Positions 1,872 through 21,399 of a stretch of DNA of 40,366 nt are shown piece by piece (the first letter of the stretch is position 1; each line of letters begins with the position of its first letter). Made by a program: the position numbers and the translations under genes. The notes beneath the pieces are model-generated. The model did no database searches. It had not been told where the DNA came from and saw nothing but the letters and a program-made list of their open reading frames with translations. The stretch comes from Bacteroidota bacterium (lineage in GTDB: Bacteria > Bacteroidota > Ignavibacteria > UBA10030 > SZUA-254): the NCBI GenBank assembly GCA_033852415.1, contig JAWOMQ010000179.1, positions 1 through 40,366 of the forward strand, written 5' to 3'.

Positions 1872-2930
1872 TTAAGGAGAGTTGCTGCCCAAATGATCTC
1901 GCGCGATTTGAATTATTTTTCTGGGGCTCCCTCCACACCCCCCGAAAATATACTCGATAGACTCACAAAAATCTATCGCGGATGCATTTCTTTGAAAACA
2001 GGTCTCCCGATATCCTCGAGCCCTTCTGAGCAGCTCTTCTACGCTATTCTGTCGGATATTTCCTAATATCTCAACTTTTGGTTCCCGCAAAAGAAACCAC
2101 TTACAGTTTAATCCCGTTTCTGCGTCGACAACACAATTTCCAATATTGTCAACATGCAATCCTGTGATGATCGATGGGCATATGGGTCGAGTGTAACCCT
2201 TCCAAAGTAGATGTTCAACTCTTTCCTTGAGCGACACTATATTTGCGTGATCCAAGGCCAAGTCCTGATAGGTTTTCTTCCTCAACGTTCTCCCGGCCTG
2301 TTCAAGCTCTCCGACAGAAGGGAAGATGTTCTTTTCTTTTGCATACTCGATTACTTTATCGATGCCATTAAGATTTAGTTGCGTTGGAACAATAGAGAAG
2401 GCCATATCTGTATAATCTGCGTAACCCTTTCCATAACCGGAACTCAGCAAGAACTCGGTTGCCTCGTAAATTCTTTGGGCGGCACCCTTTCTTCCAAGTA
2501 TCCTATCAAAATCGGGCTCCTCAAAGGTGTCCATCTTAAGGACAAGATTCACAGCCTTTTTGTGTAACCAGGTTGCTGTCTGCGCGTCAATCAGGATTCC
2601 ATTTGTGAAGACAGACATCCTAACATCATGAATTGCAGCCTCCTCCACAAGGCCCACAAACCTGTCGTCCTCAAGAGGTTCACCCAAACCACAAATGTAA
2701 ATCCATTTCAGCCCGCAACTTAGAGCCTCCTCCAAGAGATTTTTCGTCTCGGCTTTGGTCAACTCATTTGTATACTTACTTCCCACCTTCGGTCGGGAAT
2801 CGCAGTATATGCAGGACGCAGAAGTGCAATTGGCCGTGAGTTCCAGGTCCAGAGTGACCAAATCACCAGAATCGTGCGCCCTCAAGCACTCATCGAGCAC
2901 TTCATCACACCAAGGATAGTAGGTGATCAT
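1872..2930 (-). CDS. Radical SAM protein with atypical Cx4Cx2C motif and SPASM/Twitch-like C-terminus
   Basis: LELTANCTSASCIYC, GLGEP, FTNG; C-terminal CPS..G..C..LGNI...C..GGCGG. Confidence 0.85.
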   Translation of the reverse strand: MITYYPWCDEVLDECLRAHDSGDLVTLDLELTANCTSASCIYCDSRPKVGSKYTNELTKAETKNLLEEALSCGLKWIYICGLGEPLEDDRFVGLVEEAAIHDVRMSVFTNGILIDAQTATWLHKKAVNLVLKMDTFEEPDFDRILGRKGAAQRIYEATEFLLSSGYGKGYADYTDMAFSIVPTQLNLNGIDKVIEYAKEKNIFPSVGELEQAGRTLRKKTYQDLALDHANIVSLKERVEHLLWKGYTRPICPSIITGLHVDNIGNCVVDAETGLNCKWFLLREPKVEILGNIRQNSVEELLRRARGYRETCFQRNASAIDFCESIEYIFGGCGGSPRKIIQIARDHLGSNSP

Positions 2931-3030
2931 CGGACAATCAATCAGTGTTTGAATTGAAGAGTTACATGAGTTTGTAAATATGATGTAATCTTACCTCAAG
3001 GTCGGGCGGTTTCGTATCCATTGCCACTTT

Positions 3031-3963
3031 TTATCCCTGATTGCTAGTCCCCTCTCGCTTATTGAAATCAAATTGCAACTGCTTTGTAACCACGTGTGTC
3101 CCTCGTTCATCCATCATAGACTGCAGGGACTTAACGAATATCGCCCATGCGTCTTTGGGTTTTGAATCGACCTTATAGACAAGGGGATATTTCGCTTTTT
3201 CGTATAACTGACTCGTGGGAAACTTCACCAGTACCGTAGGCGGCTCACCATAGGCATCATAAATAATGACCGTCATATAAACCAAATATTCCGGGACCAA
3301 GAAGCACTGGATTTGTTCCTTCGCTTGTTGTACTGACAGGCCAGAGGACCTTTTCCACTCCGACGCTAGCTCCATCATCCTGTTCTGAAGCCGTTTGTCT
3401 TCGCAGGGAATCAGATATTTGTACTTTATGCCCTTCTTGAAATTTTCTTGCAGGGTCTCTTTGAGCTCTTCATTCTCAAGTACGAGGGAAGAAGTCAGGA
3501 CCCAAATCTCACTTCTCTCTCTGACGCTTCTCTCGATCCGCACCAGATCCTCGTATGTAATCAGAGATTCTCTGAATTCCCCCTCCATAAGCTGCTTTAC
3601 TGTATTTATAGAGAGGTTTAAAGATTGGATACACCTTTCACACGTGAGCGAGTTTGAAAGTACTCTGTCTATTTCGGTCTTGAATTGACCGATTTGCACC
3701 TTGGTTTCATCAAATTTCTGATCAAGCTCTTGAGTGGCCGCGACTAATTGTCGTCCAGCAGTTAACTTTGCGACAATTGCTCCTACGAAAGATGACAAAG
3801 ATACAAAAAGTATGGCCAACAAAATGTTCCTGAGTTTGAATTCCAAGAGCAAACTCTCGAGAGCAATTGTGCCAGCGACTACGCATACCACAATGACAAT
3901 ATGCACCCACCACGGCAATTCGAGTTTAGTTCCCGACATTTCCGTCCTTATATTAGTTGACAA
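3031..3963 (-). CDS. Hypothetical membrane protein: two N-terminal TM helices, coiled coil, soluble alpha/beta C-terminal domain
   Basis: Two hydrophobic stretches near the N-terminus followed by a heptad-like segment; overlaps the upstream gene's stop, so it is operonic. Confidence 0.75.
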   Translation of the reverse strand: MSTNIRTEMSGTKLELPWWVHIVIVVCVVAGTIALESLLLEFKLRNILLAILFVSLSSFVGAIVAKLTAGRQLVAATQELDQKFDETKVQIGQFKTEIDRVLSNSLTCERCIQSLNLSINTVKQLMEGEFRESLITYEDLVRIERSVRERSEIWVLTSSLVLENEELKETLQENFKKGIKYKYLIPCEDKRLQNRMMELASEWKRSSGLSVQQAKEQIQCFLVPEYLVYMTVIIYDAYGEPPTVLVKFPTSQLYEKAKYPLVYKVDSKPKDAWAIFVKSLQSMMDERGTHVVTKQLQFDFNKREGTSNQG

Positions 3964-4876
3964 CGTTTTTAGGATTTCCGGTTATGAACGCCTCAATGTT
4001 AGAAAAGCATTCGTTCACTTGTCGAGTCTTTGCTTCCACGGTGTTAAATCCAACATGAGGTGTCAAAACAACACGATCTGAATTCAACAATTCCTTTGGC
4101 AGCTCGATCTTTCCTCCTTCAACTGCAACATCAAGTCCGACTCCGCGGATGCGATGGTTCTGCAAGACCTCTATCAGATCATCAAGCACGATTATATTCC
4201 ATGTGGCCGCGACAAGAATCGCATCACGTTTCATGGTGTTGAAGCTATCCTTGTTAAGCATTCCCCTTGACTCATTATTGAGCGGGCATGATACGCAGAT
4301 TACGTCGCTTGAGGAAAGAAGTTCACCAAGAGACCCGTAAGGAACATCACCGCGCTTCTCCCGATGGCGCGTGTGCGCAACCACTTCCATGCCTAAGCAT
4401 CTGGAGATTTCAGCAACTCTCCTCCCAATTTTCCCGAAGCCGATGATTCCCATCCTACGACCCTTTAACTCCACACCCTCCAAATAACCCTTTTCAGTTC
4501 TGCCGGTTCTCAGATTATGGTCTCCAACCATAGTCTGGCGTGCCACACACAGCGCCAATCCAATTAGATGCTCCGCAACTGCTTCCGTGGCATATTCAGG
4601 TACGTTGCTGATGAGTATCCCCTGTTTCCTCGCCTCGTCCCTATGCTGAATCCATCCATACCCCGTGGACATTAGCGCAACTAGAGATGGTGATTTCATA
4701 GAGAGAATAAACCCAGAAGGATCTATCCAATCTACTAAGACCACATCCGCTCCTCTGATTCTTTCGGGTATTTCGTCATCGCTCGAGGATTCAAACCAGT
4801 CGACGCGTCCTAGTTGCTCCAGGCGCTTCGTCTGCGCTTTTGATCTTTCAATTTTCTCCAACACTACAATTTTCAT
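3953..4876 (-). CDS. D-isomer-specific 2-hydroxyacid dehydrogenase family protein (divergent active site)
   Basis: SNVPEYATEAVAEH, ELKGRRMGIIGFGKIG (Rossmann), SDVICVSCPLN, LDV, LTPHVG. Confidence 0.9.
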   Translation of the reverse strand: MKIVVLEKIERSKAQTKRLEQLGRVDWFESSSDDEIPERIRGADVVLVDWIDPSGFILSMKSPSLVALMSTGYGWIQHRDEARKQGILISNVPEYATEAVAEHLIGLALCVARQTMVGDHNLRTGRTEKGYLEGVELKGRRMGIIGFGKIGRRVAEISRCLGMEVVAHTRHREKRGDVPYGSLGELLSSSDVICVSCPLNNESRGMLNKDSFNTMKRDAILVAATWNIIVLDDLIEVLQNHRIRGVGLDVAVEGGKIELPKELLNSDRVVLTPHVGFNTVEAKTRQVNECFSNIEAFITGNPKNVVN

Positions 4877-6006
4877 TTTTTTTTGCCTCTATATATTTGA
4901 TTTACCTTTATCTTATACAGATCGTGGTCTATTGTGCAACCTTCACAAAGGAGACACCCCTGGTTCCTGTCCGGGCATATGCCGTTTTCAATCATCGCGT
5001 CCACAGCAGCCTCGCTTGCCTCAATAAGGTCCTGTGGTCTACAAGGTGGGCGGTATCTGAAAGCAGATTTATCCCACGGCTTGAATGGCAAGATGCACGG
5101 TTGTGACCCGACATCTGCCAATGCTCTCACGCATTCAATCGAATCTTTTATTGGCTCGAGCCCCACGAGGAGACAGCTTCCCACCCGATTCGGCCCCAGC
5201 GTATCTACTACTTTTTGACATGCCCTCAAATATGTAGTCTTAGGGATTTCAGATTTTCCCGGACAGATCCCTTTGCGTAGCTCATCATTCCATATCTCGA
5301 TATTAAATCCGAAGCTGCTGACGCCTGCTCTTACAAGGCGTAAAATGTCGTCATCTGATTCAGGGGGGACCATCTCTACCCATATTGGCACTTCAGGGTT
5401 ATTTTCTCGGATGACAGAGGCACACTCGCAAAAATAATCGACATTTCTGCTCAAGGGCATTCTGGTTCCGCCACCGAGGCAGACATGATATGCTGAGTTT
5501 CCCCTGAGCGCTTCAGAAACAATTTGAGCAACTTCTGTCGGACTGGCGATCTCCCATTTGGCACCCGTACCACAGAACTTACATTGTTTTCCCCCTGCGT
5601 AGTAATCACATCCCGTGTAAGCTTGATGCAGAAACTTCTTTCCTTCATGCAGAAAAAAGTTGCCCATCGCGATCCCCGTGCTAGTTTTCTTGTGACACCA
5701 GTTGCCTGTCGATACTTCCTCCACTCGACAAACAACCAAACCGTTCTTCAGCAGGGCAAGACCACTTTCAATTGCTTCCAACGAATAAGGCGATTTCCTA
5801 TCAAATTGGTGGGAAATGGTAACGAGTGCACTGCTTGCTCCATCAATAGAGATATGGATTCCCACATTACCCGTCTTCCAGTCTCCATAAGGATTCTGCC
5901 TTTGGTACATAGCCTTAGCAACATCATTAGGATATACTCCTTTGCATAGCAACTCTGCTTTGAGACCTGCGATATATAGTGGCCGAGATTGTGGTTCTTC
6001 AAACAT
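4873..6006 (-). CDS. Radical SAM protein with Cx8Cx2C motif (resembles MSMEG_0568/biotin-synthase-like clade)
   Basis: CDYYAGGKQCKFC, LGGG, FNIEIW, ICPGK, LVGLE, C-terminal GCLLCEGC. Start is ATG 6006 or TTG 6039. Confidence 0.85.
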   Translation of the reverse strand: MFEEPQSRPLYIAGLKAELLCKGVYPNDVAKAMYQRQNPYGDWKTGNVGIHISIDGASSALVTISHQFDRKSPYSLEAIESGLALLKNGLVVCRVEEVSTGNWCHKKTSTGIAMGNFFLHEGKKFLHQAYTGCDYYAGGKQCKFCGTGAKWEIASPTEVAQIVSEALRGNSAYHVCLGGGTRMPLSRNVDYFCECASVIRENNPEVPIWVEMVPPESDDDILRLVRAGVSSFGFNIEIWNDELRKGICPGKSEIPKTTYLRACQKVVDTLGPNRVGSCLLVGLEPIKDSIECVRALADVGSQPCILPFKPWDKSAFRYRPPCRPQDLIEASEAAVDAMIENGICPDRNQGCLLCEGCTIDHDLYKIKVNQIYRGKKK

Positions 6007-6174
6007 GGAGCTAATCGAAGTGTCAAAAGTTTTGATCAAGATAGCGATTTTTCGGGCCTTTTCAAAAAGGCTCGCGTGAAAAAAATACGCAGGGGGAACC
6101 GCTCCGCGATTTGATCCTTATCCGAACTCTTCATACCTTTCGGCATCAATTTTCCACCGTTCTCCTAATCCACC

Positions 6175-6316
6175 AAAGTCCCGCAACGAAGGGTGTCGCG
6201 CATGCGTGTTCGCCTCCCACACCATGCACAGCTTCCTTGCGGATTGAAAAGTCCCGTCTATGAGACCCACGTGGGTTGCTACGCCTCCCCAGTGACTCAT
6301 AACTCATAGACAGGAC
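6175..6316 (-). other. Twin-hairpin structured element A (putative ncRNA or ssDNA signal)
   Basis: 14-bp stem GTCCTGTCTATGAG/CTCATAGACGGGAC enclosing CTGGGGAGGCG and CACGTGGG; second hairpin with loop GGGAGGCGA; homologous to 10870-11024. Confidence 0.6.
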
Positions 6317-6331
6317 AGCTTTTTTCGAGAC

Positions 6332-6367
6332 AAAAAAATGCCCGCCGTATGGTGACGACGGGCTTTT
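6332..6367 (-). terminator. Intrinsic terminator after radC-like gene
   Basis: Minus strand: GCCCGTCGT-caccat-ACGGCGGGC followed by ATTTTTTT. Confidence 0.8.
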
Positions 6368-6370
6368 ATT

Positions 6371-6829
6371 TCAGAGCAATCCTCGCTCCGCGAAGCTCAT
6401 GTAGCCATTCTGTTCCGTGACGATCACATGGTCATTGAGAGGTATGCCGAGAAGCTTCCCCGCTTCGACCAGTTGTTTCGTTATGGCAAGATCATCACTT
6501 GACGGCTCACTGTTTCCCGAAGGGTGATTATGCACCACGATAACCGATGCAGCATTCACCATGTAAGCGAGCTTGAAGACTTCCCGGGGATGTACGAGGG
6601 AGGCGTTCAAGACACCCACAGAAATCGTATGAACGCCGATTAACCGATTTGCATTGTTCAGGTAGAGTCCAATGAAGTGTTCCCGATCCACTCCGCGCAG
6701 ATACTCGACCGCGATCTTGGCCGCATCTGCTGGAGATTGGATGTACGGATTCTCGACCGTGAGGTTTGCATCGTGAACGAGAATCACTTTATAGATCGGG
6801 GTTTCACAGAAGAGTCTTGGTTTTTTCAT
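6371..6829 (-). CDS. radC: RadC-family JAB/MPN domain protein (MGE type, no N-terminal HhH)
   Basis: DREHF, VHPREVFK, HNHPSG...PSSDD, DHVIV; ATG 6829 overlaps the upstream stop (ATGA). Confidence 0.92.
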   Translation of the reverse strand: MKKPRLFCETPIYKVILVHDANLTVENPYIQSPADAAKIAVEYLRGVDREHFIGLYLNNANRLIGVHTISVGVLNASLVHPREVFKLAYMVNAASVIVVHNHPSGNSEPSSDDLAITKQLVEAGKLLGIPLNDHVIVTEQNGYMSFAERGLL

Positions 6830-7632
6830 ATGCTCAGCTCGACTTCTTGTTTCGGCCGCTCTGCCTTCACCCCCACGTTCCAGATGGGGCAGAGATGCGC
6901 ATACTCGCAGTCTTTGCACCACCACCCCGTGCGCGGAAAGAAGATGCCTCCCGTGATCCCTTTGTATACCTGCTCTGCAACCCTGAAGAACATCGAGTGA
7001 TGATCCCTTCCGCGAGTCGTCATGAGGACCTCGAGTTTGGGTTTCTTGTACTTCACGAAGTTCACGATCTTCAAGGCTCGCGGTTGCCTCCCCGAGAGTC
7101 GTGTATAGGCGTACGCATAGGCCGTGAGCTGAAGGTGAGATTGGATGTCACTCTCCGTTAATGGCTGTGCCGAGGTTTTGAACTCAACGATCGTATCACC
7201 TTCCTCCACAAGATCGAAATACCCGTCGAGGTGCACTGGAAGCTCTTCTCCCGTTGAAGGATTCACAAGTGGGATCGTGAACGGAATCTCAGAACCCATG
7301 ACCTTTCTGTACGGCTCCTTGAAATAGAGTCCGAGCATCTCCTTTCCCATCACCGTGAGTTTCAGGTTCTCTTCGTTATCCTTGTAACGGATATCGGCAT
7401 CGACGGTTTGGCTGAACCAATCGACATCGAAGATTTTGTAGAGCCGTTCCAAGGATACGCCGTTGCCCTTCATCCGCTCCTGGTGAAGCCATGCGAGAGC
7501 GGAGTGGAGTGCGCTTCCGAAGGCAAGGGCGGACGCTTTGAAGAGTCTTGGAATCTTCTCGATGTACTGGAACTTGTACTTCTCTCCGCACTGGAGGTAG
7601 AGGTTGATCTGGCTGCTAGAAAGGTGTTCCAT
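6826..7632 (-). CDS. PD-(D/E)XK nuclease, Cas4/RecB-AddB-like, with 4-Cys Fe-S ligands
   Basis: LSSSQINLYLQC, FGSALH, GYFDLV, IVEFKT, QLTAY, CKDCEYAHLC. Confidence 0.9.
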   Translation of the reverse strand: MEHLSSSQINLYLQCGEKYKFQYIEKIPRLFKASALAFGSALHSALAWLHQERMKGNGVSLERLYKIFDVDWFSQTVDADIRYKDNEENLKLTVMGKEMLGLYFKEPYRKVMGSEIPFTIPLVNPSTGEELPVHLDGYFDLVEEGDTIVEFKTSAQPLTESDIQSHLQLTAYAYAYTRLSGRQPRALKIVNFVKYKKPKLEVLMTTRGRDHHSMFFRVAEQVYKGITGGIFFPRTGWWCKDCEYAHLCPIWNVGVKAERPKQEVELSI

Positions 7633-8035
7633 TGTCGCCGTCTCCTTTCACGGTTTCGAGCAAGCGTTCGATGAGTTTGCTCGCGTCGAACTTCGTGATC
7701 TCCCGAAGCGATTGCACGTTCAAGAGGTTCTTGAGGTGCTGGGTGGCTTTGTCACCTTCGATCTTCTGATCGGCCAGGAGGCGGAAGATGTATCGCTTCT
7801 GGGCATCGGTCATGGACTCCGGTTCTCCCTTTCCGTCCCTTCTCCCGTGTGTCTTGGGTGCGGCGGAGGTGGGCGCCTTCCTTTGAGGCTGCTGTCCCTC
7901 CCCATCTGTGGGCGATAAAGATTGCGGCTGAAGTTCGGACCGCATTCCCTGTGGTTCTTGTTCCGTCACATTGATTCTGAAAAGCACTGTACCGTCGGCT
8001 CTTTGCACTTCGATACAGAGTGGTTGCGTGGTCAT
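7616..8035 (-). CDS. Hypothetical protein with TxxQ...T(K)xxASxxI helical motif
   Basis: AAGGAG RBS upstream; MTDAQKRYIFRLL...ITKFDASKLIERL; overlaps the nuclease start. Confidence 0.75.
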   Translation of the reverse strand: MTTQPLCIEVQRADGTVLFRINVTEQEPQGMRSELQPQSLSPTDGEGQQPQRKAPTSAAPKTHGRRDGKGEPESMTDAQKRYIFRLLADQKIEGDKATQHLKNLLNVQSLREITKFDASKLIERLLETVKGDGDNGTPF

Positions 8036-8097
8036 ACTGTGCTCCTTTCTTGGTGTTGTAAATGTGCGACTTCAAGTGTTGCACACGGAGCCCATGG

Positions 8098-8128
8098 AAC
8101 AAGAAAGCAGAACGTGCCGGGAGCGGCA
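8098..8128 (-). promoter_or_regulatory. Element-specific motif copy 2
   Basis: Minus strand TGCCGCTCCCGGCA-cgttct-GCTTTCTTGTT upstream of the 8035 start. Confidence 0.6.
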
Positions 8129-8171
8129 ACCAATACCTCCCTGCATCGTAGCTATCATCACTTCGAGTAAT

Positions 8172-8207
8172 AAAAAATCCTGAACGGGCTTGAATTGTTC
8201 AGGATTT
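8172..8207 (-). terminator. Intrinsic terminator after DUF932 gene
   Basis: Minus strand AAATCCTGAAC-N11-GTTCAGGATTTTTT. Confidence 0.75.
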
Positions 8208-8226
8208 GTTTCTGCGAGGAAGCGAG

Positions 8227-9189
8227 TCAATTTCTCGCCGTCATCATATCGAGCGCGAGCTTGAAGGCGTGCTGTTTGATCCTCTCACCGGAGCCGAACC
8301 AGATCGACCGCAAGCGCGTCGAATCACCATTTGTGAGACGGCGATAATAATCCACATACTCCGTGACGGCGTTATACGCGCCCCAGAGCGTTCCACGGGC
8401 GAGATCAGCGCCTTTCCCGACATGCGCAAGCTCGAAGACCTTTTCCCGGACAGGGTTCCTCCGATGGGGGCAGCCGTTTGTGAGAGGATCGGGGAAGACC
8501 TTCGCTACGTAATCAGAGAGTACTCGTCCATCGATTCGGGTACTGCTCATCTGGTTGAAGATGTGATCGAGCTCTTCGTAAAGTTTGTTCGTGAGCCCAA
8601 GAATCTCGTGTGCCTCTTTCATGCGCTCCGATGCGTGCGCGGTGTGTCGGATACGGACTTCCTGTTCCGCGCCGCTCAACGCGAGGGAGAGTGTGTTCTC
8701 GCAGACAACACGGATCGGTGTGAGCTTCACTCGCACGACGCTACTGCCGTCATGGGAGTTCGTGAGGAGGAGGAATTTCTCGACAAGATCGTTTCCCCTG
8801 ACGCGGATATAATCGGGAAGCTTGGCTAAGAGCCAGATGCGTTCTCCTTTTCCCAAGGCTCCTGCCGTGTGGTAGATTGCTTCTCCTTCTCCGACTAAAG
8901 CATCGAAGGTCATGAAAGCTTCGTGGTTCTGTATCGGAACGTAGCGTGATCCCACGACACCCAAGACTTGGTTTGTATCCATCCGAACCGTAGCGAAGTG
9001 GGACTCGATGGGGAGAGCTGTTTCTGTGGTAAGGGGAATCTTATGGACGGTAAAACCCAATCCTGCTGATTGAATTGCTTCCTCGGCCGTGGCCGGTTCG
9101 TCGAGCTTTGTGCCGAGCTTGTGCCAAGGCACTTCGCCGACGTACATCATGCCGATCTGGCCATTGGCTTCATTGAGGTTGTGACCCAT
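8227..9189 (-). CDS. DUF932 family (phage/plasmid-like) protein
   Basis: PWHKLG, LGVVGSRYVPIQN, TAGAL..GERIW, NSHDGS, TPIRVVCENTL, IRHT, GTLWGAYNAVTEYVD; AAGGAG RBS before ATG 9189. Confidence 0.92.
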   Translation of the reverse strand: MGHNLNEANGQIGMMYVGEVPWHKLGTKLDEPATAEEAIQSAGLGFTVHKIPLTTETALPIESHFATVRMDTNQVLGVVGSRYVPIQNHEAFMTFDALVGEGEAIYHTAGALGKGERIWLLAKLPDYIRVRGNDLVEKFLLLTNSHDGSSVVRVKLTPIRVVCENTLSLALSGAEQEVRIRHTAHASERMKEAHEILGLTNKLYEELDHIFNQMSSTRIDGRVLSDYVAKVFPDPLTNGCPHRRNPVREKVFELAHVGKGADLARGTLWGAYNAVTEYVDYYRRLTNGDSTRLRSIWFGSGERIKQHAFKLALDMMTARN

Positions 9190-9287
9190 GAGTTGTTGCT
9201 CCTTTCTGTGTATGGTGACGTTGGTTGATATGCACCCCTTTGAAGTTTTCAAAGTGCACGCTCAGTTTCATGCATCATTAACTCACC

Positions 9288-9318
9288 AACAAGGAAGCTC
9301 AACCTGCCGCAAGCGACA
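9288..9318 (-). promoter_or_regulatory. Element-specific motif copy 3
   Basis: Minus strand TGTCGCTTGCGGCA-ggttga-GCTTCCTTGTT in the divergent DUF932/ATPase intergenic region. Confidence 0.6.
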
Positions 9319-9384
9319 TGGGATGCTTTCTTTCAGTTACGGTGCGAGGAGCCATACAATGTGTTCACTTCAAGCGAAGCAATC

Positions 9385-10707
9385 ATGGAGAACAAAGACA
9401 AAGAACCCTTGACGCCGATCGCGGTGACGAACTGGCGGGACATCCGACGGGTGTTTGGCATCAAACAAAAGAATCGGAGGGGTCATATCTACGTGATCGG
9501 AAAGACAGGCACGGGAAAATCGACGCTCATGGCTCGGATGATGATCGACGACATGCAGCAAGGGTACGGCATCGGGGTCGTCGATCCACATGGCGATCTC
9601 GCAGAAACAATCCTCCAACACGTACCGAAGGAGAGAGTGAACGACGTGATCTATTTCAATGCTGCGGACTTTGACTATCCCATACCCTTTAATCCCTTGG
9701 AGCAAGTTCCAAATCAGGAGCGACACCTTGTGGTGTCTGGACTCCTATCCGTATTCAAGAAAATGTGGCATGACTTCTGGGGCCCACGGCTTGAACACAT
9801 ACTCCGCCATGCGCTCTTTACACTCCTTGAGGTTCCCGGAAGTACGCTCCTTGATGTCCCCAGGTTACTGACAGATGCAGAGTTTCGGAAGATGGTGTTA
9901 ATGGGCGTGAATGATCCTCATGTGCGCGCCTTCTGGACACGAGAGTTTGATAAGTATTCGGCCTGGCTTCGCTCGGAAGCGACATCTCCCATCCTCAACA
10001 AAGTGGGGCAGTTCCTCACAGCTCCGCCGCTTCGGAACATCGTCGGGCAACCGCATGATTCCTTCAGGATGCGCGAGGTAATGGATGAGGGGAAGATTCT
10101 GATCGTGAATCTCTCGAAAGGGAAGATTGGGGAAGACAACTCTTCGCTCTTAGGCGCGATGATTGTTACTGAGCTACAGCTTGCAGCCATCAGTCGCGCG
10201 CATCTCCCGGAACATGCTCGCAAGGCCTTTTATCTCTACGTGGACGAGTTCCATAACTTCCTCACGCTCTCGTTTGCCGATATGCTTTCAGAAAGCCGGA
10301 AGTATGGGTTGAATCTCATTCTCGCACACCAGTACCTTGATCAAATGCACGAGAAGGTGCGCCTGGCGGTTTTTGGGAACGTGGGAACGATCATTTCGTT
10401 CCGGGTTGGTGCGGAGGATGCGAAGTGCCTGGCAAGGGAATTTCACCCCACTTTCGATGAAACTGACTTTGTAAATTTGCCAAATTACCAAATTTACCTA
10501 CGGTTGATGGTTGATGGTGCCACATCGGAGCCATTTAGCGGAACGACTATGGCACTCGGCCATTCCGGCGGGGATCAAGGTTCCCGTTGTGTGGAAGCAT
10601 CAAGAGCAAATTACGCGCGGTTGCGGAGCAACGTGGAGATCCAAGTTCTGGAAAGGTGCGCTACGTTGGCAAATAAGAAGAAACGCCTCCCCCTTGGGTT
10701 GTTATAA
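9385..10707 (+). CDS. Soluble VirD4/TraD/HerA-like P-loop ATPase (type IV coupling protein-like)
   Basis: HIYVIGKTGTGKS (Walker A), VVDPHGDL, FNPL, LYVDEFH (Walker B), SESRKYG, LAHQY, FGNVGT; no TM segments. Confidence 0.88.
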   Translation: MENKDKEPLTPIAVTNWRDIRRVFGIKQKNRRGHIYVIGKTGTGKSTLMARMMIDDMQQGYGIGVVDPHGDLAETILQHVPKERVNDVIYFNAADFDYPIPFNPLEQVPNQERHLVVSGLLSVFKKMWHDFWGPRLEHILRHALFTLLEVPGSTLLDVPRLLTDAEFRKMVLMGVNDPHVRAFWTREFDKYSAWLRSEATSPILNKVGQFLTAPPLRNIVGQPHDSFRMREVMDEGKILIVNLSKGKIGEDNSSLLGAMIVTELQLAAISRAHLPEHARKAFYLYVDEFHNFLTLSFADMLSESRKYGLNLILAHQYLDQMHEKVRLAVFGNVGTIISFRVGAEDAKCLAREFHPTFDETDFVNLPNYQIYLRLMVDGATSEPFSGTTMALGHSGGDQGSRCVEASRANYARLRSNVEIQVLERCATLANKKKRLPLGLL

Positions 10708-10869
10708 CATGATACATCATGGATCCCATCAGTAACGTATTGACTTGGACCCTCTCTCGTTTATGGCATTCTTTATCACGGAAACGGCATCATCATTATG
10801 ATGTGAAATGATTTGTGACCTGCTCCCATTTGCTGTATTTGTGTACGCCGATTTATCAACATAATATAA

Positions 10870-11024
10870 ATCCCGTATACGAGCGGTGCGGCGCTGGGGA
10901 GGCGACAGTGCAGGCACGTGGGGACTCGTACACGGGATATATGTCCTTTGCCGGACAATGAAACCTGCGCGGTGGGAGGTAAGACGCGCACGAGAACGAA
11001 GCCTTCTACGCCAGGCAGAGAGAC
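10870..11024 (+). other. Twin-hairpin structured element B (homologue of element A, inverted orientation)
   Basis: Stem ATCCCGTATACGAG/CTCGTACACGGGAT enclosing CTGGGGAGGCG and CACGTGGG; second hairpin TGCGCG-gtGGGAGGtaaga-CGCGCA inside an outer stem 10943-11024. Confidence 0.6.
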
Positions 11025-11447
11025 GAATCACACGCGAATACGGAAAAGAACGGAGCGATCAGGATGATGGAAAGTGACGATTGAAGATAAAGAGAGATTT
11101 TGAAATTGTCAAGACTCTAAGACAAAAAGCCCGACCAATTATGATCGGGCTGCATAACAAGAGAAGAATAGTGATCGAACACGGCGAAATTACGCAGGTT
11201 CCTTGCAAGAAGCAAATTATCAAACGGTTAAATCTTTGCCCCTTCACCCCTTGTCATTTATTGGGGTTGGCAGGGTGTCGGGGAGGTATCTCGCCATCTA
11301 TGAATCCACGAATGAGTCGAAAGGGAGCTTTTCCCAAACCATAACCCTTCCTGATACCGCCTTCCCTGATTCGAGCACCGCGGGATTCTACCAGCAAAAT
11401 GAGCAAATATACTCGCACAAATACATCTATTTTTCGTAAAATTTAAC

Positions 11448-11476
11448 TTGACTTTCATCTCTCGTCTTCATAAATT
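11448..11476 (+). promoter_or_regulatory. Putative sigma70 promoter of the secreted-protein pair
   Basis: TTGACT-N17-TAAATT. Confidence 0.6.
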
Positions 11477-11594
11477 GCGACCATCACGCGGGTAGGCGTT
11501 CTTTCAAATCAAAGTTCTGCACGTAATTAAGAATCCAATACAGTTTTTGTGCGAAGGGTGTATCTCTGGAGAAACACAATTCGGAGGATAGCAT

Positions 11595-12278
11595 ATGAAG
11601 AAAACCATCTGCGTCGGCCTGATTCTGCTGCTTGCTACTGGTCTGTGTCATACGCAATCGAGCTTGAGCTCTGGCGAGCGCAAGATGCGAGGCATAGATA
11701 CTATGCTAGCTCACCATGGAATAACACGGGAAATGTCTCAGAGGATGAAAGAGAAAGGGCTGAATCTCAGGGATGAGCTGAGATATCGAACTAAACCCTT
11801 TGAGGTGGTAAACGTTTTTGTTTTTGATGTTGTGGTTGTAGGAAAAGTGAAAAGAATGATTGATTTACCTGCACCTAGGACTGATCCGTTCCATTCAAAA
11901 GCTGTAGTCGAGGTGAGCCAAGTGCTCAAAGGCCTCTCACCTGACACTAAGGAGATCGAGGTCCTACGGGAGAGTGGCCCGTTAACAGGAGAAGGGGATG
12001 TGCGCTTGCGTACTTCGTTGGAAGCATCGTTGGTCGTTGGTGAGGAGGCAGTCTTCTTCCTGGAAAAAATAGGAACCGCTACCTACATCCAGACTCCGTT
12101 CCGGACATACTTTAGAAACCACCCCGACAAATATTCCTCGGATGCGCTCTGGTTAGAGGGCGGTGCAAAGCTATCTATCAAGAATGGCGAGATATTCGAC
12201 GAGCATTTGAAGCAATATCGATCAATCAGCACAGTGATTCAAAACATGAAGGACGCACTTCAACTTTTGGCCAATTAG
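11595..12278 (+). CDS. Secreted protein, probable TIMP-like/NTR OB-fold domain
   Basis: GGAGG RBS; signal peptide MKKTICVGLILLL...; pattern DVVVVGKV...VEVSQVLKG...IEV....G...LVVGEEAVFFL. Confidence 0.6.
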   Translation: MKKTICVGLILLLATGLCHTQSSLSSGERKMRGIDTMLAHHGITREMSQRMKEKGLNLRDELRYRTKPFEVVNVFVFDVVVVGKVKRMIDLPAPRTDPFHSKAVVEVSQVLKGLSPDTKEIEVLRESGPLTGEGDVRLRTSLEASLVVGEEAVFFLEKIGTATYIQTPFRTYFRNHPDKYSSDALWLEGGAKLSIKNGEIFDEHLKQYRSISTVIQNMKDALQLLAN

Positions 12279-15004: not shown

Positions 15005-15943
15005 TTATCGTCTGGGCCCCATAAATTTTTCGCCGTTGAAGTGGATCATATGATCAGGATGTTCCACAATCCACACTTCTGTTTCCCAAGCGAGGTTGCT
15101 TGTGTGGCGCTTAAACTCACCGAAATCAGGGAATGCCGACACGTAAATCTTGCCTGCTTCACAATTCTTTAGAAATTCTTCGAGTTCCACGATTCGCTTA
15201 GGCGTTACGGGTCCATGTGAAGTCACTGCTTCGATAAGATACAGCCAATTCTTGGCGGGATCGTAAATCACGACATCAGGTAACTTGCTGTGCTGGTCAA
15301 TCGGAATTCCGAGCTTGGTCAGCATCCTGGAATCCATATGCAAGTCCTTCTTCGCGGCATCGCCAAGGTATAGTAAGAGAGAGCCCTTTGCGAAACGGGA
15401 AGCAAATTGATTTACGATGGCGGCCTGCACTTGGTTATGTTTTCCAGGAGAAAGAGTTATCGTGGTTCCATCTGCAAGTTTCAACGGGATGAGTGTCAGT
15501 TCACGGTCCTTGACATACTTTTTCTTCAGCTCGCCTACTTCGGTTTTGAACTTCGCCAATGCTATTGACCATCGTTTTGTCCCGAAAGTTTTGATCACCT
15601 CAAGAGCGGTTTTCGAGATCGCATAATGTGCATTCGGGCTATTTACGGGGAGGAGCGGATTGTCGGGATTGTAATCGGCAAGTCGTGCCTGAACGAATTG
15701 GTGCAACACTTGCCGCCTCACTGTTTCCCGAGTGTTGGGAGCATAGCGGCGTTTGTACTGCTTGGCTATGAAATCCATGATTCCCTTAGTGACCTTCAGA
15801 CTAGAGCGTTGAGCATCTTTCCACGCATCCCTTTGTTTGATGCTGCAAAGAGCAAGCAGCGTCAGGGCAGAAATTTCGTTTTGTTGGGCCTCGGGAAGGC
15901 CCAATTCTTGTAGGATAGTCTGAGCTTCTTTGATTTTATTCAT
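15005..15943 (-). CDS. Type II restriction endonuclease, BsuBI/PstI family
   Basis: LGLP..QQNE, YAPNTRETVRRQVLHQF, LSPGKHN, KLPDVV, LIEAVTSHGP, AWETEVW...HMIHFNG; start ATG 15943 overlaps the MTase end. Confidence 0.93.
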   Translation of the reverse strand: MNKIKEAQTILQELGLPEAQQNEISALTLLALCSIKQRDAWKDAQRSSLKVTKGIMDFIAKQYKRRYAPNTRETVRRQVLHQFVQARLADYNPDNPLLPVNSPNAHYAISKTALEVIKTFGTKRWSIALAKFKTEVGELKKKYVKDRELTLIPLKLADGTTITLSPGKHNQVQAAIVNQFASRFAKGSLLLYLGDAAKKDLHMDSRMLTKLGIPIDQHSKLPDVVIYDPAKNWLYLIEAVTSHGPVTPKRIVELEEFLKNCEAGKIYVSAFPDFGEFKRHTSNLAWETEVWIVEHPDHMIHFNGEKFMGPRR

Positions 15944-17573
15944 GCGTGCTGACAAGTTCCTTTTCCATCTCAAACACCTGACTCACAACCTCGTCAACGA
16001 TGGGCTGAGTGAATTCGTTCTTGAGGATGATTGTGTTGCCGATTTGTTTGATTGTCTCGAGGGGCGGCAAGGGCATCTCACGCAGTTCTGTGGCACTTAC
16101 GTTGATATTTCCGTTGAACGTTCTGAAGTAAGTATCAAACAGGCTGCTATTGAGTAATGCTGCAAGGCCGATGATCTCGTTACGGTCCAAGTGGCCGCTT
16201 GGTCGGTAAATATAGTTCAAGTGATTCTCGACACCGATAACATCGGCCTCAACGGTGTCGGCGAAATACGGCGTAGCCACTAGTCTGCTTTTGTCATCCT
16301 TGGAACTAAATCGGCGAAGGAAAATGTAGTTCTTGTTAGGAATCAGCAAAGACAGAGACTTTTCGCAAACCTCGATGTACTCACCTTTGCCGATTTTGTG
16401 GAGTGGCCACGTTAGCCTCATCTGGGAAGCGTTGTGTAGCCAATAGAGTGGGGCTAGCGATATCGCCATCGTGGGCTCGCCATGGATGAATCTCTTCGCT
16501 CTGAAGCAAACGACTGGTCCAGTAGAGATTTGGATGCTGTAAGCATTTAGACTTCCTAGCCATGATCTGAAAAGGCGAATGACATTGGCCTCGTAATCAG
16601 AACAGGGCAAGTGCAGAATCTTCTGATGGGAGCTAATATCTAACAACTCGTCCATATGGAACTTTTGAACCCTTCGGGACTCTAAATCTCTGAGCCCCTG
16701 TGAAAAGGAGACAGTGATCGCAGGTCGCTTCCCGTTTGCCTTCATGCGCCGGGCTGAGATAACGACATTCTCTTGTAAAACATCATCCTTCAGGAACGCT
16801 TCTTTTCTCGAGTCGAAGAGGTGAACGGCATCAAGTTGAACGAGCGAGAAAAACTTGGCACGGAACAGTCTGAAATAAAATCCCGATGAAAAGCTGCGGG
16901 GCGTGATAAAGATTAATTGCCCGTTCTCTACCAATAGCGTGGCGGCGATGTACAAGAAGATCGAATAGATGTTGGGTTGTCCGTGAACAACCGCATTGGC
17001 CGCCCTCGCTCTGGCATCCTCCTTTGGGAGCTTGAAATAGGGGGGGTTTGAGATGATGAGATCAAAATAGTCCCTGCTTCGTTCCTGATTTTCAAGAGTG
17101 TCGGAGTTGGAAAGCAGGAAATCGTCGGAGAGAATAGTGAAGTCAATTTCGACATTGTGATGAGCTAGCCACTTCTTGAGGTAGGACAACGATTGATGAG
17201 CAAGTGGAATCAATTCGTGGTCAGTTTCATAGGCCACGACCACTATCTTTGATAGATGTTTATGAGAATTCTGGAGTCGCTCTGATAACGCGCACGTGAG
17301 GATCGCTACGCCGCAACCCGGATCAAGGATTCTGATTGTTGACTTGCTGCAGAGACTCAGGCTTGCCATGAACCTGGCGAGGTCGGCGGGAGTAAAGAAC
17401 TGACCATGTTGTTTTTTGTACTCGTCCGAGACTTGAGATGAATAATATCTTCCCAGTCTCTCAGCAAACGAACTAGGCAATTCCTCTTTGAGTGGCGATA
17501 GCTTATCGCCAATCCCAAAATCGACGGGATTCGTGGTGATTTTTGGCGCCATGGGTAATGGTTCTCGTTTCAT
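15936..17573 (-). CDS. N6-adenine DNA methyltransferase (gamma class, M.BsuBI/M.PstI/Eco57I-like)
   Basis: GQFFTP, ILDPGCGVAIL, ISNPPY, FITPRSF, VLQEN, RRFSSK, ENHLN; start uncertain (17582/17573/17552). Confidence 0.93.
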   Translation of the reverse strand: MKREPLPMAPKITTNPVDFGIGDKLSPLKEELPSSFAERLGRYYSSQVSDEYKKQHGQFFTPADLARFMASLSLCSKSTIRILDPGCGVAILTCALSERLQNSHKHLSKIVVVAYETDHELIPLAHQSLSYLKKWLAHHNVEIDFTILSDDFLLSNSDTLENQERSRDYFDLIISNPPYFKLPKEDARARAANAVVHGQPNIYSIFLYIAATLLVENGQLIFITPRSFSSGFYFRLFRAKFFSLVQLDAVHLFDSRKEAFLKDDVLQENVVISARRMKANGKRPAITVSFSQGLRDLESRRVQKFHMDELLDISSHQKILHLPCSDYEANVIRLFRSWLGSLNAYSIQISTGPVVCFRAKRFIHGEPTMAISLAPLYWLHNASQMRLTWPLHKIGKGEYIEVCEKSLSLLIPNKNYIFLRRFSSKDDKSRLVATPYFADTVEADVIGVENHLNYIYRPSGHLDRNEIIGLAALLNSSLFDTYFRTFNGNINVSATELREMPLPPLETIKQIGNTIILKNEFTQPIVDEVVSQVFEMEKELVSTHE

Positions 17574-17629
17574 AGGTGACAAAAATATTGAGCGGCTCCC
17601 ATACGCTGCATTTTCCCACTCATGGGATT

Positions 17630-17658
17630 AGTATATGAAATTTTGATAATTTTAGCAA
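17630..17658 (-). promoter_or_regulatory. Putative sigma70 promoter of the R-M operon
   Basis: Minus strand TTGCTA-N17-TATACT. Confidence 0.6.
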
Positions 17659-17778
17659 TCAAGATTCGCGTCGTACACCGATCTCACAATGCTCGTCAGG
17701 GTAACAAAGGTGCTCTCGGTTCAAGTTGGTTTTGACATTTTCGGTATGTAAATTTCACCATCGACAGGATGGTGCCTC

Positions 17779-17940
17779 GTGCATAAAACCAAAACTATTC
17801 GTATCGGGATAAGAGTTTCAACCGAAGACCAGGTCAAGGGCGAGAGTTCGGGACATCGTGAGATGCAGGTACGTGGCTCCACGATGGCGCGAATTGAGTA
17901 TTGGTTCCTGTCGAAGATGCTGCTATCCACTGCAATTTAA
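17779..17940 (+). pseudogene. Remnant of a serine recombinase 5' end (paralogous to 18705-18803)
   Basis: Translates (V/M)[32 protein letters not shown] versus integrase [33 protein letters not shown]; similarity ends ~17877, stop at 17938-17940. Confidence 0.85.
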
Positions 17941-17958
17941 ACTTCTAAAGGAAGGTTC

Positions 17959-18654
17959 TTGAAAAGCAAAAGTGACCAATTTCTTACTCTGAGCATTGAT
18001 GAGGCAGAGAACGGCATTAATAAATGCCTTGAGACTGCCAGGAGACTCGTTAGGGCGGCGAAACTTCTTTGCGACGCTCAATATTTTGAGATTGCATCAT
18101 TTCTCCTTTGTGCGGCGATTGATGAGACTGGAAAGGCTTACCTTCTCTTGGATTTCCAAGACGAAAAATTTGAGAATAGACCAGAGAGTGTACGAAACCT
18201 CGCGAGCTCATTTTTTGAGCACGTCGACAAACTTGAATCGGCCCTTGAAGCCGTGAGGACTCTTGAATCGCGCATTGAGTCAGTCCTCAAATTAAAATCG
18301 GAATGCAACTCGTCACCTGAAATCGTGGAGGCGATCCGCGAGCTCACCGGTGGATTCACGCCGCTGGCGGTCAGAGATGAGGCTAAAAAGACATTTCGTC
18401 GCCCGAACGAGTTTCTCTACACCGACTACCAGAAAGACAAGTTCATCATCCCGAAATGTCAGGCGACGTTGTCGGGATACCAAGCCCTTCTTAAATGCGC
18501 TGAGAAAGCCGTTACACTTGCTGAGTTTGAAAGGTTCCGGGATAAAGTATTTCGATTGAGAGGAGCGTCACGAGAAACGGTTAGCAAGATTTTCCTTGAG
18601 AGTTTGCCAGAGCTCATGGAGGTAGTACGGAAACAGCGGGCCCCGTGCAAATAG
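17959..18654 (+). CDS. AbiV-family (HEPN-like) abortive infection protein
   Basis: A.RL..AA.LL....F.IA.FL...AIDETGKAYLL, FFEHVDK and R.NEFLYTD pattern; TTG start with GGAAGG RBS. Confidence 0.72.
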   Translation: MKSKSDQFLTLSIDEAENGINKCLETARRLVRAAKLLCDAQYFEIASFLLCAAIDETGKAYLLLDFQDEKFENRPESVRNLASSFFEHVDKLESALEAVRTLESRIESVLKLKSECNSSPEIVEAIRELTGGFTPLAVRDEAKKTFRRPNEFLYTDYQKDKFIIPKCQATLSGYQALLKCAEKAVTLAEFERFRDKVFRLRGASRETVSKIFLESLPELMEVVRKQRAPCK

Positions 18655-21234: not shown

Positions 21235-21399
21235 TGCAGTTATCCTCCCTGTGGCAACCAAAAAGCGAAATCTTCAAACAAATTCAGAATTCGAAGATTT
21301 ACTCCCGATTATATACTAACTATTTCTATAAGAATCAAATGCTTTTTTCACCCTTTTATTGCTTTTAGAAGTACTTTTCGTTATCATAAATCATACCTG

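What the first reader, a model, noticed from the sequence alone, without database searches (positions are those of the whole stretch)
6175..11024. Two homologous, covarying twin-hairpin elements with GGGAGG loops flank the element core in inverted orientation
Seen: A (minus, 6316 to 6251) is gtcctgtctatgag-ttatgagtcaCTGGGGAGGCGtagcaaccCACGTGGGt-ctcatagacgggac. B (plus, 10870-10938) is atcccgtatacgag-cggtgcggcgCTGGGGAGGCGacagtgcaggCACGTGGGga-ctcgtacacgggat. The stems differ by compensatory changes (G-C to A-T, T-A to C-G, T.G to C-G) while the loop motifs are identical. Each is followed 70-80 nt later by a second hairpin presenting GTGGGAGG(C/T), then a purine-rich tail containing AGAACGG. They lie just past the 3' ends of the two divergent core units (radC side, ATPase side) and just before the cargo modules. 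Covariation implies selection on structure. Inference: an undescribed ncRNA family (SD-like loops as ribosome/CsrA decoys, or anti-SD CCUCCC on the opposite strand), or ssDNA signals such as paired priming sites (like RSF1010 ssiA/ssiB), an oriT-like site or cargo-capture sites. Wobble pairs do not settle the strand unambiguously.
Basis: partly seen in the sequence, partly recalled or inferred. Interest (0 to 1): 0.85.

Follow-up and report, generated by a model that had tools for sequence, protein, structure and literature searches.

The report
Small RNA genes with anti-Shine-Dalgarno loops
The two hairpins are real, but they are two copies of a previously undescribed small-RNA gene family that is spread through the genomes of one uncultured Bacteroidota family, is read from the strand opposite to the one proposed, and shows ribosome-like CCUCCC loops.

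Summary
They are not specific to the mobile island. A covariance model finds 10 copies in this 64%-complete genome and copies in 39 of 44 genomes of the same taxonomic family (31 of 31 high-quality ones). Outside that family only plain terminators matched, where inspected. Covariation is strong: 91% of cells are paired against 62% in shuffles, and 22 of 23 pairs change on both sides. On the opposite strand there are 114 G.U and 14 A.C pairs, a U-rich tail follows the stem, and sigma-70-like promoters lie upstream (14 of 14 in one subtype, ending 5-7 nt before the stem). The RNAs are therefore about 85-215 nt. Each ends in a long terminator hairpin with a CGCCUCCC apical loop and a CCCAC internal loop. 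The genome uses Shine-Dalgarno sites, so the likely action is pairing with ribosome-binding sites, as in the alphaproteobacterial CCUCCUCCC ("cuckoo") sRNAs. That step is inferred. No Rfam family matches. Two homologous island cores in related genomes have no copy next to the core genes, so flanking the core is not a conserved feature. Expression could not be tested.

The parts
6111..6139 (+). Candidate promoter of sRNA A' (TTGATC-N17-TACCTT). It is weak and lies back to back with a - strand promoter-like site at 6065->6038.
   Evidence: The consensus scan did not list it (only 3 of 6 in the -10), so the A' start is inferred.
6146..6327 (+). Candidate sRNA A' (about 180 nt). It has a pyrimidine-rich 5' stretch, a 5' hairpin, a terminator hairpin and a U-tract.
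   Evidence: Fold (z = -3.8). R2 match at 6239-6336, 71.3 bits.
6181..6242 (+). 5' hairpin of A', with loop CGCCUCCCAC (CCUCCCAC at 6213-6220).
6251..6316 (+). P1 arms are 6251-6264 and 6303-6316, the internal loop CCCAC is at 6266-6270, and the apical loop CGCCUCCCC is at 6282-6290.
6320..6325 (+). U-tract after the A' hairpin.
6340..6363 (-). Separate intrinsic terminator of radC, convergent with A'.
11084..11112 (-). Promoter of sRNA B' (TTGACA-N17-TATCTT, 10 of 12).
   Evidence: The -10 is the same as in the family's type I promoters.
10860..11077 (-). Candidate sRNA B' (about 215 nt) with the same layout as A'.
   Evidence: Fold (z = -3.1). R2 match at 10850-10950, 74.1 bits.
10967..10990 (-). 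5' hairpin of B', with loop UCUUACCUCCCAC (CCUCCCAC at 10979->10972).
10870..10938 (-). The apical loop holds GCCUCCCC at 10903->10896. It is followed by UUUAUAUUAU.
11128..11151 (-). Ordinary - strand terminator just upstream of the B' promoter. It separates B' from upstream - strand transcription.

Best explanation
A and B are two genes of a multi-copy small-RNA family that was found only in one uncultured family of Bacteroidota-labelled genomes among those searched.

Supported by sequence evidence (covariation, strand asymmetry, motif positions); no transcript was observed:
- A sigma-70-like promoter starts transcription either at the foot of a long irregular hairpin or 20-145 nt upstream of it.
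- The hairpin has three helices: P1 (14 bp), P1b (4 bp) and P2 (5 bp).
- It carries an internal CCCAC loop and an apical C(G)CCUCCC loop.
- It is followed by a U-tract, so it is expected to double as the intrinsic terminator.
- In the window, A' (+ strand, about 6146-6327) and B' (- strand, about 11077-10860) each carry an extra 5' hairpin with a second CCUCCCAC loop.
- Each is convergent with the last gene of a core operon (radC on one side, the ATPase on the other).

Inferred:
- The exposed CCUCC(C) loops copy the anti-Shine-Dalgarno core of 16S rRNA. They would pair with GGAGG-type ribosome-binding sites of mRNAs and repress or modulate translation. This is how other C-rich-loop sRNAs work.
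- The island simply carries two paralogues of a host family. The copies are not part of the island's transfer machinery.
For: Copy number and spread:
- 10 R2 matches lie on 8 contigs of the window's genome, and all fold to the same shape.
- 39 of 44 genomes of family f1 have a match, and 31 of 31 high-quality ones.
- In the order scan, f1 has 30 of 32 and the other families 3 of 118, all weak.
- In the phylum sample, 2 of 149 genomes outside f1 matched. Both turned out to be plain terminators lacking the inner part.

Structure:
- On 49 distinct sequences, 91.0% of cells are paired against 62.1% in shuffles (0 of 500 shuffles reach it).
- 22 of 23 pairs change on both sides.
- Sliding the partner columns gives 36-43% paired.
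- MAFFT plus RNAalifold on 22 non-seed sequences recovers 10 pairs of P1, all with double changes.

Strand:
- On the opposite strand G.U is 114 and A.C is 14. Among the 35 non-seed sequences it is 79 against 10.
- The 10 nt after P1 hold a mean of 7.1 T. The mirror position on the other strand holds 3.6.
- Promoter-like sites scoring 9 or more within 160 nt upstream number 14 of 14 (type I) and 16 of 35 (type II).
- In type I the -10 ends 5-7 nt before P1 in 14 of 14.

Independent gene:
- In the 12 of 14 type I loci whose flanking ORFs could be read, the sRNA lies convergent with a roughly 180-aa ORF and divergent from a roughly 140-150-aa ORF.
- Pfam names these as a PduO-type cobalamin adenosyltransferase and nuoA, followed by nuoB and nuoC, in the three loci scanned.

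SD usage in this genome:
- GGAG, GAGG and AGGA peak at -15 to -8 before crude ORF starts. GGAG reaches 16-37 per position there, against mostly 1-7 farther upstream, over 1523 ORFs.

Not a housekeeping RNA under another name:
- No Rfam match.
- SRP RNA is found elsewhere in 3 of 4 genomes checked.
Against: - No expression data: no RNA run was listed. All starts and ends are predicted.
- The A' promoter is weak and failed the consensus scan. 19 of 35 type II copies have no promoter-like site scoring 9 or more within 160 nt.
- The B' U-tract is interrupted (UUUAUAUUAU).
- The inner helices P1b and P2 are supported only by model-fitted alignments and single-sequence folds. The de novo alignment recovered P1 alone.
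- No target was established. A crude duplex scan of island start regions gave nothing convincing, and any CCUCC-bearing RNA will match many SD sites.
- In type I the whole inner sequence is invariant across genera. That is more than a pairing seed needs and could point to a protein partner.
Confidence: 0.7

Rival explanations
1. Elaborate intrinsic terminators or 3'-end modules with only a local role. They would stop or insulate convergent transcription and stabilise 3' ends, and would have no trans-acting function.
For: - Every copy ends in a U-rich tail.
- Many copies abut the 3' end of a convergent gene. A' lies 35 nt from radC and B' 143 nt from the ATPase, and the copies on contigs C74 and C4 are similar.
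- One copy follows a same-strand histidine-kinase gene by 85 nt.
Against: - Type I copies have their own near-consensus promoter 5-7 nt before the stem and no upstream same-strand gene.
- Loop sequences are conserved while stems vary. Termination does not require that.
- radC already has its own terminator at 6340-6363.
- Homologous islands use plain terminators at the corresponding places.
Confidence: 0.12
2. A protein-binding RNA (sponge, decoy or RNP component). Its C-rich loops would be recognised by a protein rather than by mRNAs.
For: - The 40-nt inner part of type I is invariant across at least 8 genera.
- Type I is single-copy and syntenic in many genomes.
Against: - No partner is known.
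- Type II copies vary freely outside CCCAC and CCUCCC. That fits short pairing seeds.
- The RNA is not SRP RNA, and at about 85 nt it is too short for 6S.
Confidence: 0.1
3. One reading: an RNA on the drawn strand whose GGGAGG and GUGGG loops mimic SD sites and titrate ribosomes or CsrA.
For: - The hairpin also folds well on that strand.
- In A, the one non-Watson-Crick pair of the outer stem is a U.G on that strand.
Against: - A.C 81 against G.U 15 on that strand.
- The flank after the hairpin on that strand is not U-rich, and the flank before it is A-rich.
- Promoter-like sites on that side number 2 of 49.
Confidence: 0.02
4. A DNA-level signal of the mobile element: an ssDNA priming site, an oriT-like site, a recombination or cargo-capture site, or a REP/MITE-type repeat.
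For: - The two copies are inverted and sit at the edges of the only part of the island shared with related islands.
- G.T pairs are also tolerated in ssDNA.
Against: - Copies lie beside ordinary chromosomal genes: a histidine kinase, a LuxR-type regulator, an EamA transporter, a TPR protein and nuoABC.
- All 31 high-quality genomes of the family have it, whereas the island ATPase is found in 7 of 44.
- Homologous cores in G023 and G018 have no copy next to the core genes.
- Stems differ between copies within one genome, unlike REP or MITE copies.
- Four pattern matches in viral contigs were all chance.
Confidence: 0.04

Closest known systems
Cuckoo RNA family (alpha-r14 / RSs0680-CcsR / NfeR1) of Alphaproteobacteria. 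Source: passages read in PMC4615179 and PMC10746234.
   Same: - Hairpins whose stems vary through compensatory changes while a C-rich anti-SD loop motif stays fixed.
- Several paralogues per genome, on chromosomes and on accessory replicons.
- Presumed or shown action by pairing with ribosome-binding sites.
   Different: - The motif here is C(G)CCUCCC plus an internal CCCAC, not CCUCCUCCC.
- Most members have one long three-helix hairpin that is also the terminator, not 2-4 adjacent simple hairpins. Only A', B' and two others have a second C-rich loop.
- The host is a Bacteroidota-labelled lineage.
- There is no Rfam match, so this is likeness in kind, not homology.
RsaE/RoxS and other C-rich-loop sRNAs of Firmicutes (recalled, not read here).
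   Same: Unpaired C-rich motifs are thought to mask SD sequences. Each is a short RNA ending in a terminator.
   Different: No sequence or model match. The architecture differs and the taxon is unrelated. Regulation and targets here are unknown.
Ordinary Rho-independent terminators.
   Same: A G+C-rich stem followed by a U-tract. Outside the family the model matches only such terminators.
   Different: About 66 nt of structured, sequence-conserved interior, an own promoter, and family-wide conservation.

Membership tests
Any Rfam 15 family | Match to a curated covariance model. | tested here: not met
   No match at gathering score over the whole window. At E<=1 on 5800-11500 the only match was an unrelated terminator at 11121-11166.
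Cuckoo / alpha-r14 / CcsR sRNAs | Loop motif CCUCCUCCC. | tested here: not met
   The loops read CGCCUCCC(C/A), CCCUCCC and similar. The defining motif is quoted from PMC4615179.
Cuckoo / alpha-r14 / CcsR sRNAs | 2-4 adjacent hairpins, each carrying the motif. | tested here: not met
   45 of 49 members have one composite hairpin. 4 of 35 type II copies, A' and B' among them, have a second C-rich motif upstream.
Base-pairing sRNA with a C-rich (anti-SD) seed, as a kind | Own promoter and own terminator, in an intergenic position. | tested here: met
   Promoter-like sites in 14 of 14 type I and 16 of 35 type II copies, against 2 of 49 on the control strand. U-tails. Intergenic positions.
Base-pairing sRNA with a C-rich (anti-SD) seed, as a kind | Conserved unpaired seed with covarying stems. 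| tested here: met
Base-pairing sRNA with a C-rich (anti-SD) seed, as a kind | Transcript detected, and targets regulated through SD pairing. | not testable with these tools
   No RNA run was listed. The host does use SD sites, which makes the mechanism possible but does not show it.
REP / MITE repeats | Many near-identical copies, stems included. No promoter. | tested here: not met
   10 copies in the genome, with different stems and conserved loops. Promoters are present.
Conjugative ssDNA signals (ssi, Frpo-type promoters, oriT) or integron attC-like sites | Tied to transfer or integration modules and conserved with them. | tested here: not met
   No copy next to the core genes in the two closest homologous islands. 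Present beside housekeeping genes in genomes without the island ATPase. The defining motifs of attC and ssi are recalled and were not scanned.
CsrA/RsmA-titrating RNAs | Several GGA-bearing loops on the transcribed strand. | tested here: not met
   The GGA-bearing strand is not the structured, transcribed one.
SRP RNA / 6S RNA | Match to RF00169 or RF00013 at this locus. | tested here: not met
   RF00169 matches elsewhere in 3 of 4 genomes. RF00013 matches nowhere in the 4. At about 85 nt the RNA is far shorter than 6S.

The most novel reading that the evidence does not exclude
The family is a 16S-tail mimic system. This Bacteroidota lineage still uses Shine-Dalgarno sites, and a core single-hairpin RNA (type I, beside nuoABC) together with a swarm of paralogues would display the CCUCC anti-SD to mask SD-led mRNAs globally. 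The comM-integrated island would have captured two double-loop variants (A', B') and would use them to tilt host or rival-element translation in its favour, while they also insulate its core operons.
Probability: 0.12. Interest if true: 0.7.

Novelty: new member of a known kind. Interest (0 to 1): 0.45.

Why it matters
- It adds a well-supported, unannotated RNA family (49 distinct aligned members, and more matches in the scans) to a phylum whose riboregulation is little known.
- It is another independent invention of the design "variable stem, fixed anti-SD loop". Here the design is folded into the terminator itself.
- The lineage uses Shine-Dalgarno sites, unlike Bacteroidia. That makes the family a handle on how SD-dependent translation is controlled there.
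- For genome annotation, these hairpins should not be read as mobile-element signals.
- The finding gives a ready covariance model and a single-copy, syntenic orthologue (type I) suited to comparative target prediction.

Tried and rejected
Searches that gave nothing useful:
- Rfam at gathering score and at E<=1: nothing relevant.
- Exact pattern scan of genome contigs: 26 stretches, about the number I expected by chance. Only one (L004, a MAG titled Bacteroidota bacterium) had the outer stem. Its hit is identical to that of G001.
- The same pattern in viral contigs: 4 stretches, and none matches model R2 at the pattern site.
- RNA-seq: no RNA holder was listed.

Tests that were inconclusive or rejected:
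- Link to the island. The ATPase protein was searched in 44 family genomes and 7 had a match. The two close islands (64% ATPase identity, 86% DUF932 identity) were fetched and scanned with filters off. Within 20 kb there were only plain terminators next to the core genes and one degenerate copy about 10 kb from the ATPase gene.
- Target hunting. Counts of GTGGGAGG or GGGGAGG before ORFs and duplex energies of the four island loops against 18 island start regions were uninformative. The best value (-18 kcal/mol) lies inside the PD-(D/E)XK gene about 100 nt before the likely radC start. I do not count it.
- The CACGTG palindrome as a protein site: rejected. Other copies read CCCACUUG, CCCCCGUG or UCCGCUUG.
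- Decayed coding sequence: rejected. Copies differ by indels of 1-2 nt and by paired changes. The small ORFs over A and B have no Pfam hit.
- 6S (RF00013) was not found in the 4 genomes checked. This says little, because the control rang in only 5 of 14 reference genomes.
- Of the three weak out-of-family hits, only G064 was inspected. G089 and G137 were not.
- Supplementary files of the papers were not opened.

Full report
**Observation.** A lies at 6316->6251 on the - strand and B at 10870-10938 on the + strand. Each has a 14-bp outer stem around CTGGGGAGGCG ... CACGTGGG. Each is followed by a small hairpin showing GTGGGAGG, and later by AGAACGG. Both fold far better than shuffles (z = -4.4 and -4.8). 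No Rfam 15 family matches, either at gathering score over the whole window or at E<=1 over 5800-11500. At E<=1 the only listed match is an ordinary terminator at 11121-11166.

**Setting.**
- The genes between the two hairpins are radC (6371-6925, -), a PD-(D/E)XK nuclease (6826-7632, -), an unknown ORF (7616-8035, -), a DUF932 protein (8227-9252, -) and a TraD/TrwB-like ATPase (9361-10707, +).
- Further right lie a T9SS-tailed protein, a BsuBI/PstI-type restriction-modification pair, an AbiV protein, and a large serine recombinase (18705-20204) that abuts a truncated comM (20176-21261, -).
- The C-terminal piece of comM is on another contig, C35. The window from base 1 to about 20.2 kb therefore lies inside an element integrated into comM, and both hairpins are island-borne.

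**The element is not private to the island.**
- The two-part motif occurs a third time on another contig of the same genome.
- An exact-pattern scan of 185,579 species genomes gave 26 stretches, about the number I expected by chance. Only one had the flanking stem, a MAG titled Bacteroidota bacterium.
- A first covariance model (R1) found 9 good matches in the window's own 64%-complete genome. It also matched 26 of 43 other genomes of the same taxonomic family f1 and none of 57 genomes of eight sister families.

**The strand.**
An A.C on one strand is a G.U on the other, so the structure is selected on the opposite strand.
- A second model was built in that orientation (R2). On 49 distinct sequences it gave 891 Watson-Crick, 114 G.U and 14 A.C. 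On the 35 sequences not used to build it, it gave 79 G.U and 10 A.C.
- On this strand the 10 nt after the stem hold 7.1 T on average (range 4-9). The mirror position holds 3.6.

**Structure.**
- On alignment A5, 91.0% of cells pair, against 62.1 +/- 1.1% in shuffles (0 of 500 reach it).
- 22 of 23 pairs show changes on both sides.
- Sliding the 3' partners by 1-3 columns drops pairing to 36-43%.
- That alignment is fitted to the model, so I also ran MAFFT plus RNAalifold on 22 non-seed sequences. It recovered 10 pairs of the outer stem, each with double changes, but not the inner helices.
- The inner helices rest on the fitted alignment and on single-sequence minimum-energy folds, which reproduce P1, P1b and P2 in all eight further copies of this genome.
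- The consensus reads: P1 (14 bp), then an internal loop (A/U)(C/U)CCAC, then P1b (4 bp), then P2 (5 bp) closing an apical loop C(G)CCUCCC, then a short A-rich 3' internal loop, then the P1 return, then U-rich tail.

**Distribution.**
- R2 matches 39 of 44 genomes of family f1 and all 31 that are at least 90% complete and at most 5% contaminated. There are 1-10 matches per genome.
- In an even sample of the order, f1 has 30 of 32 and the other eight families 3 of 118, all weak and short.
- In a phylum sample, 2 of 149 genomes outside f1 matched. Both are plain terminators in which the model's 41 inner positions are skipped.
- Two of the three weak order-level hits were not inspected.

**Two subtypes and promoters.**
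- Fourteen sequences (type I) share an invariant interior (UCCACGGUUUCUGACUUCGCCUCCCAAGUUGGAAUGCCACA) with covarying P1.
- All 14 have TTGACT-like / N17 / TATCTT or TATAAT hexamers whose -10 ends 5-7 nt before the first P1 base. Transcription should therefore start at the foot of the hairpin and give an RNA of about 85 nt.
- In the 12 of 14 type I loci whose flanking ORFs could be read, the sRNA is convergent with a roughly 180-aa ORF and divergent from a roughly 140-150-aa ORF. Pfam names these as a PduO-type cobalamin adenosyltransferase and nuoA, followed by nuoB and nuoC, in the three loci scanned. This points to an orthologous chromosomal gene.
- The other 35 sequences (type II, including A and B) are dispersed and have variable 5' extensions.
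- Promoter-like sites scoring 9 or more within 160 nt upstream occur in 14 of 14 type I and 16 of 35 type II copies.
- The window's genome lacks a type I copy in its pduO-nuoA spacer.
- Its other copies lie next to ordinary genes: a hybrid histidine kinase, a LuxR-type response regulator, a T9SS substrate, an EamA transporter and a TPR protein.

**The two window copies re-read.**
- B' has TTGACA-N17-TATCTT at 11112->11084. It would run from about 11077 to about 10860.
- A' has only a weak TTGATC-N17-TACCTT at 6111-6139, which the consensus scan does not list. It would run from about 6146 to about 6327.
- Both fold into a pyrimidine-rich single-stranded 5' part, a 5' hairpin whose loop contains CCUCCCAC, and the family hairpin with its tail.
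- A second C-rich motif at that position occurs in only 4 of 35 type II copies, three of them in this genome. A' and B' are therefore a two-loop variant and are probably close paralogues.
- Each is convergent with the last gene of a core operon. radC has its own terminator at 6340-6363.

**Is the flanking arrangement meaningful?**
- The island ATPase has close relatives (64% identity) in two family genomes.
- Their cores share DUF932 (86%), PD-(D/E)XK, the unknown ORF and radC, but in a different order, with radC after the ATPase.
- Scanning 72 kb around them with filters off found only plain terminators next to the core genes, plus one degenerate copy about 10 kb from the ATPase gene.
- The hairpins do sit at the edges of the shared core in this island. 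That is a single case, and the arrangement is not conserved.

**Mechanism.** The genome uses Shine-Dalgarno sites. Over 1523 crude ORF starts, GGAG reaches 16-37 per position at -15 to -9, against mostly 1-7 farther upstream. GAGG and AGGA behave alike. The conserved unpaired CCUCC(C) equals the anti-SD core, so pairing with ribosome-binding sites is the economical reading. It parallels the alphaproteobacterial cuckoo / alpha-r14 / CcsR RNAs, whose hairpins have variable, compensating stems and a fixed CCUCCUCCC anti-SD loop, occur in several copies, and sit on chromosomes and megaplasmids (passages read in PMC4615179 and PMC10746234). This step is inferred. I could not establish targets or expression. 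The full invariance of the type I interior leaves room for a protein partner. The RNA is not SRP RNA, which is found elsewhere.

**Novelty and print.** My three literature searches returned analogues in Proteobacteria but nothing on this lineage or this motif. Their terms were: anti-Shine-Dalgarno / sRNA / CCUCC / sibling; CCUCCUCCC / cuckoo / CcsR; and Ignavibacteria / small RNA / Bacteroidota / anti-Shine-Dalgarno / C-rich loop. Only the listings were seen, apart from the two papers named above. Rfam 15 has no model for it. I file it as a new family of a known kind, namely C-rich-loop or anti-SD sRNAs. It has one unusual trait: the seed-bearing hairpin is itself the terminator, and in type I it is the whole RNA.

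**Verdict.** The elements are sRNA genes read on the opposite strand. They belong to a host-family-wide set and are not transfer or capture signals of the island. Interest is moderate.

Noticed in passing
window 18705-21261; G000 contig C35 4965-5258: A large serine recombinase gene abuts a truncated comM (N-terminal 361 aa). The missing C-terminal comM domain is on another contig. The island is therefore integrated into comM and runs off the left end of this contig.
   Followed up: partly
window 15005-18654: The island carries a defence cluster: a BsuBI/PstI-type restriction enzyme, an Eco57I/N6 methylase and an AbiV-like HEPN protein.
   Followed up: no
L104 (G023:C53) 7099-11770; L105 (G018:C15 8000-27999) 3796-9455: Homologous island cores keep the same five genes in another order, with radC following the ATPase instead of lying at the far end of the opposite operon. 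A second, partial radC-like match sits just after the first in L105.
   Followed up: partly
G000 contig C228 9262-9361 (+) and 9711-9808 (-): Two family members face each other 350 nt apart. This is the same convergent geometry as A' and B', but nothing lies between them. G013:C24 has two copies in tandem 560 nt apart, and one of them recurs with the same score on G013:C26.
   Followed up: no
G000 contig C27 3575-3806: The pduO-nuoA spacer holds the type I RNA in other genera. Here it lacks a model match but keeps the conserved nuo-side promoter-like motif and a CUCCUCCCCAG stretch on the expected strand, possibly a decayed copy.
   Followed up: partly
window 6826-6925: The radC ORF as listed overlaps the PD-(D/E)XK ORF by 100 nt. 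The RadC domain starts at residue 62 and relatives align from residues 26-33, so the real start is probably further downstream.
   Followed up: no
window 1872-6039: Left of A' lies a - strand cluster inside the island: two radical-SAM proteins, a D-2-hydroxyacid dehydrogenase and an unknown 310-aa protein. It is not shared with the related islands.
   Followed up: no
G000, G001, G005, G025: The general 6S RNA model (RF00013) finds nothing in these four genomes.
   Followed up: no
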